A stretch of 64,000 bases of DNA, taken from NCBI GenBank assembly GCA_039186235.1, contig JBCDAE010000003.1, positions 65,934 to 129,933 of the forward strand, written 5' to 3'. This stretch comes from Pseudomonadota bacterium (GTDB taxonomy: Bacteria > Pseudomonadota > Alphaproteobacteria > Sphingomonadales > Sphingomonadaceae). The translations under genes and the position numbers were made by a program. Positions within the stretch are counted from its first letter, which is position 1, and every line of letters begins with the position of its first letter. The notes below the pieces were generated by a model that worked only from the letters and a program-made list of their open reading frames with translations, had not been told where the DNA came from and did not search any database. Below, one piece after another: positions 630 through 61,488 of this stretch.

Positions 630-1886
630 ATGGCGACATTCACATTCAACATGCCCGATGTGGGCGAAGGCGTGGCCGAGGCGGAAATCGTCGAGTGGCA
701 CATCAAGGTGGGCGACGCGGTTGAGGAGGACCAGCACCTCGTCGATGTGATGACCGACAAGGCCACGATTGACATTGAAAGCCCGGTGACGGGCAAAGTG
801 CTCGAAGTGGCCGGCGATCTGGGCGACACGATCGCCGTTGGCTCGATGCTGCTCGTTATCGAAGTCGAAGGCGAGCAGGATGATCCCGCACCCGCCGAAG
901 AGACCCAGCCCGAACCCGCTGCTGAACCCGAGGTCAAAGCCGACCCGGAGCCCACTCCGGCTCCGGCACCGGCTCCTGCACCCGCGCCAGCCCCTGAGCC
1001 CGCTCCGGCGTCTGCAAAAGTTCTCGCCAGTCCGGCTGTGCGCCAACGCGCGAAAGATCTTGGTATCGACCTGGCCGAAGTCAGCCCCGCCGAAGATGGC
1101 CGCGTGCGTCACGGCGATCTTGACCAGTTCCTCGCCTATAATTCGGGCGGCGGCTTCTCGCCGGCGGGCGCGACCCGCGCCGACGAGACGATCAAGGTTA
1201 TTGGCCTGCGCAAACGCATCGCGCAAAACATGGCCGCCTCCAAGCGCCACATTCCGCACTTCACCTATGTCGAAGAATGCGATGTGACCGAGTTGGAGCG
1301 TATGCGCGGCGATCTGAACGCCAATCGCGGGCAAAAGCCAAAGCTGACCATGCTGCCGCTGCTGATCACCGCGATCTGCAAGAAACTACCTGATTTTCCG
1401 ATGATTAACGCGCGCTATGATGATGAGGCGCAAGTCGTGACCCGGCATGGCAGCGTTCATCTGGGCATGGCCACGCAAACCGATACCGGCCTTATCGTCC
1501 CCGTCATTCGCGACGCGCAGGCGCGCAATCTGTGGCAGCTGGCGAGCGAAATCGGTCGTTTGGCGGGCGCCGCGCGCGATGGGTCGGCCAAGTCGGAAGA
1601 GCTTTCTGGTTCGACACTGACCGTCACCTCGCTTGGGCCCTTGGGCGGGGTGGCCACCACGCCCGTCATCAACCGCCCTGAAGTCGCGATCATCGGCCCC
1701 AACCGCATTATTGAGCGCCCGATGTTCGTAACAGGGTCAGACGGTGTGGAGCGCGTGGAAAAGCGCAAGCTCATGAACATCTCGATCTCATGCGATCACC
1801 GCGTGGTCGATGGGTATGACGCGGCGAGCTTCATCCAGGAGATCAAAAAGCTGGTCGAAACCCCGGTTTTGCTGCTGTCGGATTGA
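630..1886 (+). CDS. bkdB: Dihydrolipoamide acyltransferase (E2) of BCKDH
   Basis: Lipoyl domain (MTDKATIDI), Pro/Ala linker, ASPAVR E3-binding motif, catalytic DHRVVDG. Confidence 0.93.
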   Translation: MATFTFNMPDVGEGVAEAEIVEWHIKVGDAVEEDQHLVDVMTDKATIDIESPVTGKVLEVAGDLGDTIAVGSMLLVIEVEGEQDDPAPAEETQPEPAAEPEVKADPEPTPAPAPAPAPAPAPEPAPASAKVLASPAVRQRAKDLGIDLAEVSPAEDGRVRHGDLDQFLAYNSGGGFSPAGATRADETIKVIGLRKRIAQNMAASKRHIPHFTYVEECDVTELERMRGDLNANRGQKPKLTMLPLLITAICKKLPDFPMINARYDDEAQVVTRHGSVHLGMATQTDTGLIVPVIRDAQARNLWQLASEIGRLAGAARDGSAKSEELSGSTLTVTSLGPLGGVATTPVINRPEVAIIGPNRIIERPMFVTGSDGVERVEKRKLMNISISCDHRVVDGYDAASFIQEIKKLVETPVLLLSD

Positions 1887-21439: not shown

Positions 21440-21595
21440 TGTCGTTTCAACGCGCCATAAGCTGCGTTGGCGCCTCCCAAAAGATAACGACCGCCAAGAC
21501 GCTGATCACCAGCGTAATGACGGTCGTCTTCTCCTCCCCAGGAGAAGTGATGATCTGTTGTATTCCCCCGGTCAGCCGAAGCTGGCCTGAAAGCG

Positions 21596-57685: not shown

Positions 57686-57714
57686 GTGTAACCTTGGGCT
57701 CATGTTGCGCGAAC
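57686..57714 (+). promoter_or_regulatory. ECF sigma promoter (sigmaF/ECF16-like) of YHS gene 1
   Basis: GTGTAACC-N16-CGAAC (GTAACC 57688-57693, CGAA 57710-57713). Confidence 0.7.
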
Positions 57715-57787
57715 TGGCGAGTGTTACCTCGGAAACAGGCATCTGAGGTTTCGATTACGAATTCCATTCCCCAGGAGGAGAATACCA

Positions 57788-58342
57788 ATGAAGACTTCGA
57801 TTTTTGCCCTCGCTCTCGTCGCTGGCCTTGCGGCGTGCTCGGCCCCGGCCGAAACCACGGAAGCCCCCGTTGACGCGATGGCGGCGGAAGCTCCGGCTGA
57901 CGCAGGCCTTTACCGCGATCTTGGCGGCGAAGCGACCGGCCCCGTTTTCCGCAAAGCCAAAGCCGACACGCTCGCCGTATCCGGCTTTGACGTGGTCAGC
58001 TACTTCACCGGCGAAGGCGTCCCCACCGAAGGATCGGAAGAATTCACCGTGCGCTATCAGGGCTACGACTATCTTTTCGCCAGCGCGGAGAACGCCGACA
58101 CCTTTATCGCGGACCCGACCAAGTACGCGCCGGCCTATGGCGGCTATTGCGCCTGGGCGATCGGTGCCAACGACGCCCTCGCGCCGGGTGATCCCAACGT
58201 CTACAAGATCGTCGACGGTACGCTCTATCTGAACTTCAACGAGAGCGTCGCTGAGCGTTGGAACGCTGACATCCCCGGCTTTATCGCCAAGGCGGACACC
58301 AACTATCCGACCCACTCGGCCGATGAGCACTACCAAGACTAA
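57788..58342 (+). CDS. YHS-domain (seleno)protein-family lipoprotein, paralog 1
   Basis: Lipobox LAA-C, AVSGFDVVSYF, APAYGGYCAWA, KIVDGTLYLNFN. Confidence 0.8.
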   Translation: MKTSIFALALVAGLAACSAPAETTEAPVDAMAAEAPADAGLYRDLGGEATGPVFRKAKADTLAVSGFDVVSYFTGEGVPTEGSEEFTVRYQGYDYLFASAENADTFIADPTKYAPAYGGYCAWAIGANDALAPGDPNVYKIVDGTLYLNFNESVAERWNADIPGFIAKADTNYPTHSADEHYQD

Positions 58343-58394
58343 GGCGCGAGCCTAAACGTGTTGAGCTGATGCAACCTCTGGTCGGCTCAAAACG

Positions 58395-58422
58395 AACCCC
58401 CGTCACCGTGGTGGCGGGGGTT
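58395..58422. terminator. Bidirectional intrinsic terminator
   Basis: AACCCCCGTCAC/GTGGCGGGGGTT hairpin between convergent genes. Confidence 0.8.
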
Positions 58423-58428
58423 TCGCGT

Positions 58429-58899
58429 TTAGCCGCAGCGAATGTCGCGGATAATCCCGTCCACCGCGATCATCACGTTCAGGCGTGGGTTGGTGGGATC
58501 GGGTTTGATGTAGTCGCCGCCCGGCGCGATAAAGCGAACTTCGGTCACATCGTTGGCGACTTCGAGAATTTGGGCGCGCACATCGGCGTCGGGCTGTTGG
58601 CCGATGAACTGTCCGAACAGGTTTGCGTTGCACGCCGTGTTGGGGTCGGTCGCGGTGCCGGGGTTGAAAGGGCCTGACGCGATGGTTTCGAGCGGCTCGG
58701 CCACGGTTGGCGCCGCCACGGGCGCGCCGGGCGTCGCCTCAGCAGTTGGCGCGTCGGCCTTCGAAGTTTTCTCGCCGTTGATGCGCGCGGCGTAGTCGTC
58801 CGCCTGGCTGGCGGCCGCGGTGTCTTCCTCCGCCGGAGCGCCGCACGCGGCCAAAGCCAGCAGCGCCGCCGGAACCATGGATTTGCCATGAATCGTCAT
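58429..58899 (-). CDS. Lipoprotein with peptidase-inhibitor I78-like domain
   Basis: Lipobox LAA-C, C..N..GQFIGQ, DP.NPRLNV, terminal IRCG. Confidence 0.75.
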   Translation of the reverse strand: MTIHGKSMVPAALLALAACGAPAEEDTAAASQADDYAARINGEKTSKADAPTAEATPGAPVAAPTVAEPLETIASGPFNPGTATDPNTACNANLFGQFIGQQPDADVRAQILEVANDVTEVRFIAPGGDYIKPDPTNPRLNVMIAVDGIIRDIRCG

Positions 58900-58987
58900 G
58901 TCGTGCCCCAAGACTAAGCCTTCGTGCTCCCCGCGCTAAAGAGACATTTTCGTGTCAGCTTAATGACACGGAGCCCCTCGAGTCTCA

Positions 58988-60136
58988 TCACCGGACTCTC
59001 AAACGGCTGCGTGTCAGCTGATCGACCTTCGTGACGCCCATCAGCCGCATGCCGCGTTCTATCTCGTCCTTGAGCAGGCTAAGCGCCCGCTCAACACCGT
59101 CTTGGCCCGCGGCCGCCAGCGCGTAGAGATAAAGCCGTCCGCCCGAAGCCGCGGTCGCCCCTGTGCACAGCGCTTTCAAAGCGTGCGTCCCGCGCCGCAC
59201 GCCGCCGTCGCAGATAATCTCGATGTCGCCGCCCACCGCGTCAACAATCTCTTCCAATTGGTCGAACGGCGCGCGGCTGCCGTCCAGTTGCCGCCCGCCA
59301 TGGTTCGACAGCATGATCCCATCCGCGCCGATTTCGACCGCGCGGCGCGCGTCAGCGACGCTCATAACGCCTTTGAGCACAAAGGTGCCGCCCCATTGTT
59401 CGCGAATGGAGGCGGCGGTGGACCAATCCATCGAGGTGTCGAGCATCGTGTTGAAATATTCCGCGATGCTGACCGCCTGGCTCGATCCTTCGCTGACATG
59501 CGTGTCGAGATTGGGCAGGCGGAATTTCTCACGAAGGACATAGTCGAGCGTCCACTTGGGTCGCGTGGCGTAGCTCCACACGCTTGCGGGGGTAAAGCGG
59601 GGCGGGGTGGTGAAACCGGAACGCAGACACCGCTCACGCTTGCCCGAAACGATCGTGTCGACCGTCAAAGCCATACAATCGAACTTTGCCGCCTGGCACC
59701 GCTCGATCATGTGCGTGTTGAGCCCCTTGTCCTTGTGAACATAGAGCTGGAACATCTTGGGTCCGCTTGTAAGCGCGGCGATTTCTTCAATCGAACGCGT
59801 AGCGAGGCTGGAAATGCCGAACCACAGCCCGAACTTTTCCGCTGCCTTGGCGACGGCGGTTTCGCCCTGCCAGTGGAACGCGCGCTGGACGGCGGTCGGA
59901 GAAAGCAGCAGGGGCAGGGCGCTCTGGCGGCCAAGGATCGTGCAGGACGTGTCGATTTCGTCCACCCCGGCCAGCACATCTGGCACAAGGTCCACAGCCT
60001 CATAGGCCACGGTGTTGCGCGCTTTGGTCAGCTCGTCATCCGCCGCGCCATCGATGTAATCGAACACCGGGAAGGGCAGCCGCTTCTTCGCCAGCGTGCG
60101 AAAATCGTCGATATTATGACAGTCTGAGAGGCGCAT
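58988..60136 (-). CDS. lldD: FMN-dependent alpha-hydroxy-acid oxidase / L-lactate dehydrogenase
   Basis: FDYIDGAA, FQLY, LSNHGGRQLD, DGGVRRGT; substrate not determinable from sequence. Confidence 0.85.
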   Translation of the reverse strand: MRLSDCHNIDDFRTLAKKRLPFPVFDYIDGAADDELTKARNTVAYEAVDLVPDVLAGVDEIDTSCTILGRQSALPLLLSPTAVQRAFHWQGETAVAKAAEKFGLWFGISSLATRSIEEIAALTSGPKMFQLYVHKDKGLNTHMIERCQAAKFDCMALTVDTIVSGKRERCLRSGFTTPPRFTPASVWSYATRPKWTLDYVLREKFRLPNLDTHVSEGSSQAVSIAEYFNTMLDTSMDWSTAASIREQWGGTFVLKGVMSVADARRAVEIGADGIMLSNHGGRQLDGSRAPFDQLEEIVDAVGGDIEIICDGGVRRGTHALKALCTGATAASGGRLYLYALAAAGQDGVERALSLLKDEIERGMRLMGVTKVDQLTRSRLRVR

Positions 60137-60227
60137 AGCTGCCCGAGCCTCTGGCCGATTGCGCTTTCCAAGTCGACCCTTTCCGCTTGGGCGCGGCGCT
60201 TCGACGCATACTTTTTTTTGAAAGACA

Positions 60228-60256
60228 GTGTCACCAATCGGGCGGGCGCTGCGAAC
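60228..60256 (+). promoter_or_regulatory. ECF sigma promoter (sigmaF/ECF16-like) of YHS gene 2 / Cys-rich operon
   Basis: GTGTCACC-N16-CGAAC (GTCACC 60230-60235, CGAA 60252-60255). Confidence 0.68.
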
Positions 60257-60264
60257 ACTTGGAT

Positions 60265-60367
60265 GTGAGCGGCCATCGGGCGGCGATCGATGAACAAAGC
60301 GCTGGTCCCCTGCCGGCACTCCCCTGACACCCCTTGTTCATCGAGGTGACCGTCCGATGGCTCTCGC
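60265..60367 (+). other. Long stem-loop in predicted 5' UTR
   Basis: GCCATCGGGCGG/CCGTCCGATGGC and TCGATGAACAA/TTGTTCATCGA arms around a C-rich loop. Confidence 0.75.
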
Positions 60368-60397
60368 GCAGGCTCAGATCCCCAGGAGAACCCAAGA

Positions 60398-60883
60398 ATG
60401 AAACTTCAAACCCTTTTGTTGGCCGCCGCAGTGCTCGCTGCTCCGCTGGCGATTTCGGCCCCGGCTCACGCCGATGGCGGCGTGTTTGTTGGCGTCGAAG
60501 GCCAAAACATTGCCGTGAGCGGCTATGACACCGTCAGCTATTTCCAGGGCGACGGCGTGCCGGTCAAAGGCGACGCGCGCTTCGCGGTCAAATATGACGG
60601 CGCGGTCTGGCATTTTGCCAATCAAGCCAACGCCGACGCGTTCAAGGCCAATCCCAACGCCTACGCCCCCCGCTATGGTGGCCACTGCGCGTGGGCACTT
60701 GGAGCAAATGGTGCGCTCGCACCGGGCGATCCCAAGCTCTACAAGATCGTCGACGGCAAGCTCTACCTGAACTTCAACAAGAACGTTCAGAACCGTTGGC
60801 TCAAGAACATTTCCGGCTTCATCAGCAAAGCGAACGTCGCGTGGGCGGATACGCCCGACGGCAAAGTCTTCGGCGACAGCTGA
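60398..60883 (+). CDS. YHS-domain (seleno)protein-family exported protein, paralog 2
   Basis: Signal peptide AHA-D, AVSGYDTVSYF, APRYGGHCAWA, KIVDGKLYLNFN. Confidence 0.82.
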   Translation: MKLQTLLLAAAVLAAPLAISAPAHADGGVFVGVEGQNIAVSGYDTVSYFQGDGVPVKGDARFAVKYDGAVWHFANQANADAFKANPNAYAPRYGGHCAWALGANGALAPGDPKLYKIVDGKLYLNFNKNVQNRWLKNISGFISKANVAWADTPDGKVFGDS

Positions 60884-60919
60884 GCCGGTCAAACTTCACT
60901 TTTTCAAAGGATTGATACC

Positions 60920-61297
60920 ATGACAAAACCCGTTTCCCTTACCCGCCTTTTGATGGTCGCTGGTGGCCTTGCCGTCACGACAGCGGCGGCTCCCACCTTT
61001 GCCAGCGGTCAATGCGCTCCGGCGACGTGCACGGTGGCCGCGTGCTCGGCGTGCAGCGCGTGTTCGGCGTGCGACGCGTCGGCCTGCGACGCTTCAGGAT
61101 GTGACGCCTCAGCATGTGCAGCCGCAGGTTGTGCGGCGGCGGCCTGTGCGGCTTCGACCTGTGCAGCCTCGGCTTGTGCCGCTTCGGCTTGTGGCGCGGA
61201 CGCTTGCGCGGCGAGCGCGTGCGACGCGGCAGCATGTTCAGCGGCGGCTTGCTCGGCAAGCCCCTGCGACGCAGCGGATTGCGCACCGGCTGCCTGA
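60920..61297 (+). CDS. Secreted Cys-rich pentapeptide-repeat protein (20 Cys)
   Basis: AAGGA RBS, 28-aa signal peptide, 17 C-x4 units and 3 CSA units; synonymous codon variation between repeats. Confidence 0.8.
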   Translation: MTKPVSLTRLLMVAGGLAVTTAAAPTFASGQCAPATCTVAACSACSACSACDASACDASGCDASACAAAGCAAAACAASTCAASACAASACGADACAASACDAAACSAAACSASPCDAADCAPAA

Positions 61298-61440
61298 CGG
61301 TGCGTGTCCTGGTGTGGCCGGGGTGAACGCTCCTCCTAGTTGATCTCCGGTCACACCTTTTTTCCAAGCTTGGCCTTGGAAGGATGGCAGCCATTTCAGG
61401 AGGTTGCTTCGTGCATGTGTGCCTCTTTGCACGGAGCTTT

Positions 61441-61486
61441 GGCCCGCAAGACCCCAGCGCTTAGGGGCCTTGCGGGCCCTTTTTTT
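61441..61486 (+). terminator. Intrinsic terminator of the YHS2/Cys-rich operon
   Basis: GGCCCGCAAG/CTTGCGGGCC 10-bp stem, inner CCCC/GGGG, then a T7 run. Confidence 0.9.
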
Positions 61487-61488
61487 GA

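What the first reader, a model, noticed from the sequence alone, without database searches (positions are those of the whole stretch)
57686..61486. Candidate new ECF-controlled envelope metal/thiol-stress system: twin YHS proteins plus a 20-Cys secreted repeat protein
Seen: two YHS-type paralogs (one lipoprotein, one soluble exported) 2.6 kb apart share a promoter motif and a TCCCCAGGAG pre-RBS sequence; the second is followed 36 nt later by the Cys-rich gene and one terminator. Established (from memory): Caulobacter sigmaF uses GTAACC-N16-CGAA and controls heavy-metal genes, including DUF692/MNIO-modified copper-binding peptides (bufferins). Inference: the Cys-rich protein is an exported metal sink or RiPP-like precursor, and the single-Cys YHS proteins are its chaperones or redox partners. 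No MNIO or other modifying enzyme is encoded in this window.
Basis: partly seen in the sequence, partly recalled or inferred. Interest (0 to 1): 0.88.

Follow-up and report, generated by a model that had tools for sequence, protein, structure and literature searches.

The report
Stress-switched YHS and poly-cysteine protein module
Two exported single-cysteine "YHS" proteins and a secreted, disordered protein with a cysteine about every fifth residue form a conserved gene set in Erythrobacter-like bacteria; it sits behind stress-sigma-factor promoters and is tied to the known copper-binding "bufferin" peptide system, so it extends a known envelope defence with two uncharacterised parts.

Summary
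Both YHS paralogs, the 20-Cys secreted ORF 36 nt after YHS2, the terminator and the shared TCCCCAGGAG are at the stated coordinates.

- **Promoters:** YHS1 has an exact SigF consensus (GTAACC-N16-CGAA). YHS2 has GTCACC-N16-CGAA. Both motifs are conserved before their orthologs while the spacers vary.
- **Genome context:** contig C23 carries bufA-doxX-sigF-nrsF and a divergent bufB (MNIO)-bufC, each behind the same motif.
- **Conserved pairing:** YHS2 plus a Cys-repeat gene recurs in about 50 Sphingomonadales loci. In Sphingorhabdus-type genomes YHS2, the Cys-repeat gene and YHS1 are contiguous.
- **Link to bufferins:** YHS genes lie inside bufferin operons in several lineages. In one Erythrobacteraceae genome the order is sigF-YHS2-CysRich-DUF6969-bufABC-doxX. 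All 43 tested genomes with the pair have an MNIO, against 32% of the family sample.
- **Cys-rich protein:** no Pfam match, predicted disordered, and poorly or wrongly annotated.
- **Leader RNA:** a roughly 110-nt covarying 5' leader, absent from Rfam, precedes YHS2.

Best reading: a SigF-regulon accessory module of the bufferin/captophorin system, with the Cys-pentad protein as a trans-encoded precursor. An unmodified, redox-recycled thiol buffer is nearly as likely. Function is untested. I class it as a new variant of a known kind.

The parts
57688..57713 (+). SigF (ECF16)-type promoter of YHS1: GTAACC-N16-CGAA, about 75 nt before the ATG
   Evidence: Exact match. The consensus is as published for Caulobacter SigF. 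The same motif stands before 24 of 36 YHS1 orthologs. All 7 exact N16 genome matches lie upstream of ORFs.
57768..57777 (+). TCCCCAGGAG, an extended Shine-Dalgarno context of YHS1
   Evidence: only 3 copies in the genome, 2 of them before YHS genes.
57788..58342 (+). YHS1: lipoprotein-type YHS domain-containing (seleno)protein-family member, 184 aa, one invariant Cys (YGGYCAWA)
   Evidence: NF041384 140.3 bits and Pfam YHS. The lipobox LAAC is conserved in orthologs. Synteny is shown.
60230..60255 (+). SigF-type promoter of the YHS2/Cys-rich operon: GTCACC-N16-CGAA
   Evidence: G[T/A][C/A]ACC(A/T)3...GCGAA is conserved before the YHS2 orthologs in about 45 loci, with a variable spacer.
60262..60371 (+). 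Conserved structured 5' leader RNA: long hairpin, inner GCCAG/CUGGC hairpin, unpaired CCCCUGAC motif
   Evidence: Folding gives -60.7 kcal/mol, z = -4.0. In 20 orthologs 97% of cells are paired, 11 of 22 pairs show compensatory change, and 0 of 500 shuffles reach this. The covariance model finds one copy in the genome and 43 hits, all before YHS2 orthologs. There is no Rfam match.
60379..60388 (+). TCCCCAGGAG, an extended Shine-Dalgarno context of YHS2
   Evidence: It is conserved only in the nearest relatives.
60398..60883 (+). YHS2: soluble exported YHS domain-containing (seleno)protein-family member, 161 aa, invariant Cys97 (YGGHCAWA)
   Evidence: NF041384 142.5 bits. The AF2 model has pLDDT 85 and two beta-hairpin/helix units, with no PDB fold match at E<=1e-3. 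C97 is invariant in 42 sequences.
60920..61297 (+). Cys-pentad secreted protein, 125 aa, 20 Cys: conserved signal peptide (LLMVAGGLA), Cys/Ala/Ser/Asp repeats, C-terminal CAPAA
   Evidence: Orthologs follow YHS2 in about 50 loci. They keep the frame, the signal peptide and the CAPxA end, while the repeat units vary (CAASA, CAANP, CGA). There are no Pfam hits and CefA scores 16.6 bits, below the 30-bit cut-off. AF2 gives pLDDT 46. The 15-nt DNA repeats are imperfect.
61463..61488 (+). Intrinsic-terminator-like hairpin with T-run, between the convergent Cys-rich and DUF4329 genes

Best explanation
The locus is an accessory module of the SigF/NrsF envelope-stress regulon. It works with the bufferin (captophorin) copper-defence system encoded on another contig.

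**Shown**
- YHS1 and the YHS2/Cys-rich operon carry conserved SigF-type promoters.
- The genome has bufA-doxX-sigF-nrsF and bufB(MNIO)-bufC behind the same motif.
- The three genes travel together in Sphingomonadales.
- YHS-family genes recur inside bufferin operons.
- Every genome tested that has the YHS2/Cys-rich pair also has an MNIO.

**Inferred mechanism**
1. On metal or oxidant stress NrsF releases SigF.
2. SigF switches on BufB/BufC, BufA, both YHS proteins and the Cys-pentad protein together.
3. The Cys-pentad protein is a trans-encoded, repeat-type captophorin-like precursor. In the cytoplasm BufB/BufC turn its Cys residues, mostly spaced five apart as in EGKCG-type precursors, into thiooxazoles.
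4. The Sec pathway exports it, and it acts as a high-capacity periplasmic Cu(I)/soft-metal sink.
5. The single-Cys (elsewhere Sec) YHS proteins, one membrane-anchored and one soluble, act as periplasmic metal-transfer or thiol-redox partners of bufferin-type products.

**Confidence**
- General claim (SigF-controlled, bufferin-linked, Cys-based periplasmic defence): about 0.8.
- Specific claim that the cysteines are MNIO-modified: about 0.45.
For: **Promoters**
- Exact and near-exact SigF motifs stand before both YHS genes.
- The published consensus is GTAACC-N16-CGAA.
- Footprints are conserved in about 45 YHS2 loci and 24 of 36 YHS1 loci.
- All 7 exact N16 genome hits are promoter-placed. They precede bufA, a thioredoxin, DUF1223, DUF2147, a DedA-disulfide-oxidoreductase fusion, an outer-membrane protein and YHS1.
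- bufB has GTAACG-N16-CGAA.
- sigF-nrsF, bufA, bufB, bufC and doxX are all in the genome.

**Synteny**
- The pair is conserved in about 50 loci. The trio is contiguous without a second promoter in L043-L047.

**Bufferin link**
- The order YHS-doxX-bufABC is found in Pseudomonas/Halopseudomonas.
- The order YHS-bufA-bufB-bufC-doxX is found in two Sphingomonadaceae genera.
- L034 reads sigF-YHS2-CysRich-DUF6969-bufA-bufB-bufC-doxX.
- YHS and MNIO co-occur with odds ratio 7.3 (p 1e-5, family sample) and 3.6 (p 4e-6, phylum sample).
- 43 of 43 pair-bearing genomes have an MNIO. The family background is 32%, and my manual estimate from the and 91 lists is about 65% of NrsF-positive genomes.

**Precedents**
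- Sec-exported Cys-repeat MNIO substrates with 5-mer repeats are described, as are MNIO enzymes of this cluster that likely accept varied precursors.
Against:
- In the window genome, and in the loci examined here other than L034, no MNIO lay within the 4-kb flanks. The single BufB/BufC has its own DUF2282 precursor next door.
- Published work finds that BufB1/C1 recognise part of the folded BufA core. This protein is predicted disordered and shares no homology with DUF2282, BufA2 or EGKCG precursors.
- Repeat units and Cys spacing vary (5, 4, 3, even adjacent Cys). That fits a generic thiol function at least as well as an enzyme substrate.
- MNIO co-occurrence could reflect dependence on SigF or on the bufferin product, and the genomes are phylogenetically clustered.
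- Most YHS-family genes across the phylum are not next to an MNIO.
- The YHS2 -35 element differs from the consensus (GTCACC/GAAACC).
Confidence: 0.45

Rival explanations
1. The Cys-pentad protein is an unmodified, recyclable periplasmic thiol buffer, the cysteine counterpart of the SigF-controlled MrpX/MsrP system. It is exported with free thiols. These either scavenge hypochlorite-type oxidants by forming disulfides or bind Cu(I)/Cd as thiolates. The co-transcribed single-Cys YHS protein, with the SigF-regulon thioredoxin-like proteins and DoxX, exchanges disulfides or metal with it and regenerates it.
For: - SigF/NrsF drives a Met-rich, natively unfolded periplasmic sink plus its reductase in Azospira.
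- Here the protein is predicted disordered. It is hypervariable apart from its Cys residues and is always paired with a Cys protein of a named (seleno)protein family.
- The candidate SigF regulon of this genome is rich in exported thiol-redox proteins: thioredoxin, DUF1223 and a DedA-disulfide-oxidoreductase fusion.
- ANPCA pentads also occur fused to a c-type cytochrome domain (P0029). That suggests repeats that are redox-cycled in the periplasm.
- The variable Cys spacing needs no enzyme recognition.
Against: - The perfect MNIO co-occurrence (43 of 43) and the placement inside a buf cluster are not needed by this model.
- Free thiols in a DsbA-containing periplasm would be oxidised quickly.
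- No electron source for a single-Cys YHS protein is identified.
- The dominant 5-residue period matches captophorin precursors.
Confidence: 0.35
2. The Cys-rich protein is a radical-SAM-matured 'Cys-every-fifth' (CefA-type) RiPP.
For: It gives a weak periodic match to NF038108 (16.6 bits). One ortholog reaches 33.7 bits.
Against: The window protein and 10 of 11 family members tested fall below the 30-bit cut-off, and the match is low-complexity periodicity. The genome has no SPASM-domain protein. That CefA systems use such a maturase is from my memory of the family naming. The protein also has a Sec signal peptide and a YHS partner.
Confidence: 0.02
3. The genes share only a neighbourhood and are not one system. 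The Cys-rich ORF is a non-functional by-product of a GC-rich 15-nt repeat, or an unrelated envelope structural protein.
For: The ORF is low-complexity, gene callers often miss it or call another frame, and alternative-frame ORFs exist.
Against: The frame, signal peptide, N-terminal PCGPS and C-terminal CAPxA are conserved across about 50 orthologs whose repeat DNA differs. The position is fixed right after YHS2, with an RBS and a shared terminator. The pair moves as a unit between genome contexts.
Confidence: 0.05

Closest known systems
Bufferins / captophorins (BufA-BufB(MNIO)-BufC(DUF2063)-DoxX, SigF/NrsF-regulated; Caulobacter vibrioides; also oxazolin/fontiphorin EGKCG-repeat precursors and the 'CxxxxC' precursor group)
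   Same: It has the same type of sigma-factor promoter. The product is Sec-exported, Cys-based and periplasmic. The Cys period of 5 matches the 5-mer repeat precursors. It is in the same genome as, and in one relative the same cluster as, bufABC-doxX. MNIO co-occurrence is strict.
   Different: It is not adjacent to the MNIO in the window genome. It has no homology to DUF2282, BufA2 or EGKCG precursors. It is an Ala/Ser/Asn-Pro-rich, Lys-poor, disordered repeat protein. Its obligatory partner is a YHS-family protein, which the bufferin/MNIO papers read here do not mention. No modification has been demonstrated.
MrpX-MsrP(YedY) hypochlorite-scavenging system of Azospira suillum (SigF/NrsF regulon)
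   Same: It is SigF/NrsF-type controlled. It has a small exported low-complexity protein enriched in one oxidisable residue, and this is co-transcribed with a partner protein.
   Different: The residue is cysteine, not methionine. The partner is a single-Cys YHS protein, not a molybdoenzyme with MsrQ. No oxidation data exist.
YHS domain-containing (seleno)protein family, NCBIfam NF041384 (first noted as a selenoprotein family in Olavius symbionts)
   Same: Both YHS1 and YHS2 are clear members (140-142 bits) with the invariant Cys.
   Different: The family has no assigned function. The SigF promoters, the link to bufferin operons and the pairing with a Cys-pentad protein are new context.
Cys-every-fifth RiPP peptide CefA (NF038108)
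   Same: It has Cys at every fifth residue in a small Ala-rich peptide.
   Different: It scores below the cut-off. It has a signal peptide and a YHS partner, and the genome has no SPASM maturase.
Copper storage proteins (Csp1/Csp3)
   Same: It has many cysteines and, for Csp1, an exported high-capacity Cu(I) store (from general knowledge).
   Different: Csp proteins are folded four-helix bundles. This protein is predicted disordered and is unrelated in sequence.

Membership tests
YHS domain-containing (seleno)protein (NF041384) / Pfam YHS (PF04945) | Profile score above the curated cut-off | tested here: met
   YHS1 scores 140.3 and YHS2 142.5 bits against a cut-off of 70. Pfam YHS gives 31.3 and 36.0 against 30.3.
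YHS domain-containing (seleno)protein (NF041384) / Pfam YHS (PF04945) | Conserved Cys at the position that is selenocysteine in some members | tested here: inconclusive
   Cys97 is invariant in 42 sequences. The one TGA-containing hit found (G416) is a frameshifted copy and not a Sec form, so the Sec alignment could not be checked.
SigF (ECF16)/NrsF regulon | Promoter GTAACC-N16-CGAA upstream of the gene | tested here: met
   It is exact for YHS1 and has one mismatch for YHS2. It is conserved in orthologs. The consensus comes from PMC3511200.
SigF (ECF16)/NrsF regulon | sigF-nrsF pair present in the genome | tested here: met
   NrsF (PF06532, 115 bits) lies next to an ECF sigma gene on C23, downstream of bufA-doxX.
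SigF (ECF16)/NrsF regulon | SigF-dependent, stress-induced transcription | not testable with these tools
Bufferin / captophorin precursor | Sec signal peptide plus Cys-containing core | tested here: met
   This was read from the sequence and its orthologs. No signal-peptide predictor was available.
Bufferin / captophorin precursor | Homology to a described precursor family (DUF2282, BufA2/Buf_6/12Cys, EGKCG) | tested here: not met
   Neither Pfam nor NCBIfam gives a hit other than weak CefA. The published 'CxxxxC' profile is not available, so it was not tested.
Bufferin / captophorin precursor | Encoded next to MNIO and DUF2063 genes | tested here: not met
   In this genome the only MNIO is on contig C23. 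The feature is met in relative L034, where the pair lies between sigF and bufABC.
Bufferin / captophorin precursor | MNIO present in the same genome | tested here: met
   The window genome has one, as do 43 of 43 genomes carrying the pair.
Bufferin / captophorin precursor | Cys converted to 5-thiooxazole; copper binding | not testable with these tools
   This needs mass spectrometry, UV or NMR.
CefA (NF038108) Cys-every-fifth RiPP | Profile score of at least 30 bits | tested here: not met
   The window protein scores 16.6 bits. Only 1 of 11 family members tested exceeds 30.
CefA (NF038108) Cys-every-fifth RiPP | Radical SAM/SPASM maturase (association recalled from memory) | tested here: not met
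   The genome has no SPASM (PF13186) match, while 8 of 14 control genomes do.
MrpX/MsrP-type sacrificial sink | Exported, unstructured protein enriched in an oxidisable residue under SigF control | tested here: met
   It has 16% Cys and AF2 pLDDT 46, with a conserved SigF-type promoter.
MrpX/MsrP-type sacrificial sink | Met-rich composition with an MsrP/YedY reductase in the operon | tested here: not met
   It is Cys-rich, not Met-rich, and its partner is a YHS protein.

The most novel reading that the evidence does not exclude
The YHS (seleno)protein family is a new class of periplasmic single-Cys/Sec thiol-exchange or metal-transfer protein. Its dedicated client is a disordered poly-cysteine 'thiol battery'. 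This would be a cysteine-based counterpart of the MrpX/MsrP cycle: SigF switches it on, and the regulon's thioredoxin-like proteins and DoxX recharge it. It would give a first function to an orphan selenoprotein family and define a new kind of envelope redox/metal buffer that runs alongside bufferins.
Probability: 0.25. Interest if true: 0.8.

Novelty: new variant of a known kind. Interest (0 to 1): 0.62.

Why it matters
[quoted passage not shown] This locus adds two uncharacterised components to the SigF regulon. One is the YHS (seleno)protein family, which has no known function and is not mentioned in the bufferin/MNIO papers read here. The other is an under-annotated family of Cys-pentad secreted proteins.
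- **A testable question.** It allows a direct test of whether one MNIO/DUF2063 pair services a second, unrelated precursor encoded at a distant locus and coordinated only by a sigma factor. The alternative is that bacteria also deploy an unmodified poly-thiol buffer.
- **A new RNA.** It also brings out a conserved, covarying leader RNA that is not in Rfam.
- **Tractable strains.** Cultured carriers exist, including Erythrobacter longus DSM 6997, Erythrobacter sp. NAP1 and E. rubeus KMU-140.

Tried and rejected
- **CefA-type RiPP:** rejected. The score is below the cut-off and the genome has no SPASM protein.
- **Solved-structure relatives of YHS2:** none by sequence or by fold at E<=1e-3. The only local match is the 27-residue YHS unit of toluene monooxygenase.
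- **Fold of the Cys-rich protein:** AF2 gave no confident model (pLDDT 46), so a beta-helix like the oxazolin models could not be supported.
- **Homolog searches with the Cys-rich protein:**
  - The single-sequence search gave one partial hit in 5.8 billion proteins.
  - The exact sequences are absent from the collection.
  - The profile search gave 428 hits. Most are repeat-only matches in unrelated long proteins, and about ten clusters match full-length.
- **Selenocysteine position:** the only TGA-containing YHS hit is a frameshifted copy.
- **Rfam:** no match for the leader.
- **Published 'CxxxxC' precursor profile and captophorin precursor tables:** the sequences are not held.
- **TCCCCAGGAG as a conserved regulatory box:** real and rare in this genome, but for YHS2 kept only in the closest relatives. 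I treat it as paralog or clade-level RBS context.
- **I78-like lipoprotein, FMN dehydrogenase and DUF4329 genes:** they lie on the opposite strand and are absent from Sphingorhabdus-type loci, so I did not count them as parts.

Full report
**1. What is in the sequence**

Searches confirm three plus-strand genes.
- YHS1 is 57788-58342, 184 aa, with the N-terminal lipobox L-A-A-C.
- YHS2 is 60398-60883, 161 aa, with a signal peptide ending AHA|DG.
- A 125-aa ORF at 60920-61297 starts 36 nt after YHS2. It has a signal peptide and 20 Cys, mostly five residues apart.

A terminator-like hairpin with a T-run follows at 61463-61488. An I78-like lipoprotein gene and an FMN-dependent dehydrogenase gene lie on the minus strand between the two YHS genes. 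The dehydrogenase's likely true start is 60136. A DUF4329 gene converges on the terminator.

Both YHS proteins belong to NCBIfam NF041384, 'YHS domain-containing (seleno)protein', at 140 and 142 bits against a cut-off of 70. The literature knows this family only as a predicted selenoprotein family of unknown function. The Cys-rich protein has no Pfam match. Its only NCBIfam match is a sub-threshold, periodicity-driven hit to CefA (16.6 bits, cut-off 30).

**2. Promoters**

The published Caulobacter SigF site is GTAACC-N16-CGAA (PMC3511200). It occurs exactly once in the window, 75 nt before YHS1. YHS2 has GTCACC-N16-CGAA at 60230-60255. Neither is significant alone, but three things make them so.

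- **Genome context.** The genome carries bufA(DUF2282)-doxX-sigF-nrsF on contig C23, with an exact motif before bufA. The divergent bufB(MNIO)-bufC has GTAACG-N16-CGAA.
- **Placement of exact matches.** All seven exact N16 matches in the genome lie 20-75 nt upstream of ORFs. These ORFs are bufA, YHS1, an exported thioredoxin, DUF1223, DUF2147, a DedA-fused pyridine-nucleotide disulfide oxidoreductase and an outer-membrane beta-barrel protein. By my reading of the ORF listing, most N15/N17 variants look intragenic.
- **Conservation.** In about 45 related loci the YHS2 ortholog is preceded by G[T/A][C/A]ACC(A/T)3...GCGAA with a freely varying spacer. In 24 of 36 loci the YHS1 ortholog is preceded by exact GTAACC-N16-CGAA.

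The shared TCCCCAGGAG is real. It has 3 copies in the genome against about 10 expected, and 2 of them precede YHS genes. For YHS2 it is kept only in the closest relatives.

**3. Conservation of the gene set**

The relatives are Erythrobacter/Porphyrobacter-type Sphingomonadales. Nearly every YHS2 ortholog is followed by a secreted Cys-repeat ORF.

I collected 55 entries, some of them duplicate copies of the same locus, giving about 50 members. They are 92-180 aa long with 11-25 Cys. Cys-Cys spacing is 5 in 604 cases, 4 in 93 and 3 in 93. The family has a strikingly conserved signal-peptide core (M/L-L-M-V-A-G-G-L-A). It often has a PCGPS motif and a basic ERKARK linker, and it nearly always ends in C-A-P-x-A. 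His is almost absent (0-2 per protein) and the proteins have few aromatic residues. Repeat units differ between lineages (CAASA, CAANP, CGA), so selection acts on the cysteines and the termini.

The gene order in Erythrobacter is leuA | YHS1 | I78 | FMN-dh | YHS2 | CysRich | DUF4329 | ilvC. In Sphingorhabdus/Parasphingorhabdus-type genomes the order is leuA | YHS2 | CysRich | YHS1 | ilvC, with no separate YHS1 promoter. The three genes therefore form one unit.

Gene callers handle the Cys-rich gene badly. The exact sequences are absent from a 15-billion-protein collection, and a search gave one partial hit. The E. rubeus gene call in the collection lies in a different frame.

**4. Link to bufferins**

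YHS-family genes sit inside bufferin operons in several lineages.
- The order YHS-doxX-bufA-bufB-bufC occurs in four Pseudomonas/Halopseudomonas loci.
- The order YHS-bufA-bufB-bufC-doxX occurs in two Sphingomonadaceae genera.
- YHS lies within 1-2 kb of an MNIO in two further genomes of the phylum sample.
- In Erythrobacteraceae bacterium CCH12-C2 the order is sigF, YHS2, CysRich, DUF6969, bufA, bufB, bufC, doxX.

Phylogenetic profiles show the same link.
- In 201 genomes of the family, YHS is present in 25, MNIO in 64 and NrsF in 94.
- 18 of the 25 YHS genomes have an MNIO (odds ratio 7.3, p 1e-5).
- In 401 genomes of the phylum the odds ratio is 3.6 (p 4e-6).
- All 43 genomes tested that carry the YHS2-CysRich locus have an MNIO. 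The family background is 32%, and I estimate about 65% among NrsF-positive genomes from the lists.

The genomes are phylogenetically clustered, so this is strong but not decisive.

The bufferin and MNIO-landscape papers and the captophorin paper do not mention YHS. They do describe Sec-exported Cys-repeat precursors. These include 5-mer repeats (EGKCG), a small 'CxxxxC' group, and MNIO enzymes that likely accept varied precursors.

**5. Structure**

AF2 models YHS2 confidently (pLDDT 85) as two beta-hairpin-plus-helix units, with the invariant Cys97 between them. No PDB fold matches at E<=1e-3. The Cys-rich protein gives pLDDT 46, so it is probably disordered.

**6. A conserved leader RNA**

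Between the YHS2 promoter and the RBS lies a roughly 110-nt hairpin (60262-60371) that folds at -60.7 kcal/mol, z = -4.0.
- In 20 orthologs 97% of cells pair, and 11 of 22 pairs show compensatory changes.
- No shuffle of 500 reaches this, and slid controls pair in 30-43% of cells.
- A covariance model finds a single copy in the genome.
- It finds 43 copies in the held loci, all upstream of YHS2 orthologs of the Erythrobacter type and none in Sphingorhabdus-type loci.
- Rfam has no match.

Its role is unknown. It could stabilise the 5' end or occlude the RBS through the conserved unpaired CCCCUGA, which can pair with UCAGG(A)G. That is inference only.

**7. Mechanism**

Shown:
- the locus has a conserved SigF-type promoter architecture;
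- it is a conserved three-gene unit;
- it has a recurrent physical and phyletic link to the bufferin/MNIO system.

Inferred, and my best reading at 0.45: the Cys-pentad protein is a trans-encoded, repeat-type captophorin-like precursor. BufB/BufC modify it, Sec exports it, and it serves as a high-capacity Cu(I)/soft-metal sink. The YHS proteins act as periplasmic partners of bufferin-type products.

The main rival, at 0.35, is an unmodified, recyclable poly-thiol buffer. It would be a cysteine analogue of the SigF-controlled MrpX/MsrP system.
- Against the rival: the strict MNIO co-occurrence and the 5-residue period.

A CefA/radical-SAM route is rejected, and the ORF is not an artefact.

**8. 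Novelty and limits**

The kind of system is known: a SigF/NrsF regulon with bufferin-type Cys-based periplasmic defence. What is new:
- the Cys-pentad protein family;
- its obligatory pairing with YHS (seleno)protein-family members;
- the link between that family and bufferin operons;
- the leader RNA.

The Sec-equivalent position of the YHS Cys could not be verified.

Noticed in passing
window 60262-60371 (+): A conserved, covarying leader RNA of about 110 nt sits between the SigF-type promoter and the YHS2 RBS. It has one copy in the genome and 43 copies before YHS2 orthologs, with no Rfam family. The conserved unpaired CCCCUGAC could pair with the UCAGGAG RBS region.
   Followed up: yes
L094 (G151, same genus) 940-1060 (-): A congener keeps the leader RNA in the 575-nt gap between DUF4329 and the FMN dehydrogenase but has lost YHS2 and the Cys-rich gene. 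It retains YHS1.
   Followed up: partly
own genome: C4:29819, C13:19859, C10:34346(-), C28:31372(-), C1:4182(-): Exact GTAACC-N16-CGAA sites lie 20-61 nt upstream of DUF1223, an exported thioredoxin, DUF2147, a DedA(VTT)-fused pyridine-nucleotide disulfide oxidoreductase and an outer-membrane beta-barrel protein. This is a candidate extended SigF regulon with a thiol-redox theme.
   Followed up: partly
L079 3193-3480 (Erythrobacter rubeus KMU-140) versus my ORF at L015 4608-4937: The gene call recorded for this genome downstream of YHS2 is in a different frame from the conserved Cys-pentad ORF. The family is largely missing from protein databases.
   Followed up: partly
L034 4951-5592 (+): A DUF6969 protein is encoded between the Cys-rich gene and bufA in the sigF-YHS2-CysRich-bufABC-doxX cluster of Erythrobacteraceae bacterium CCH12-C2.
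   Followed up: no
P0029, P0063, P0038: ANPCA-type Cys pentads also flank a c-type cytochrome domain (CNTCH) in a 320-aa protein. Two full-length relatives with the same signal-peptide core have a lipobox (…ATAACS…), so they are lipoprotein versions with CAAKP repeats.
   Followed up: no
L055 4784-5261 and L058 4001-4397: The YHS2 ortholog matches in two pieces in two MAGs. This is either a frameshift or an assembly error.
   Followed up: no
window 21535-21544 (+): The third and only other genomic copy of TCCCCAGGAG lies before a 30-codon ORF (GTGATG...). Its significance is unknown.
   Followed up: no
L115 (G416:C1:2969500-2970400): A YHS-family copy with an in-frame TGA turned out to be frameshifted. 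Its signal peptide is in another frame, so it is not a selenocysteine form.
   Followed up: yes
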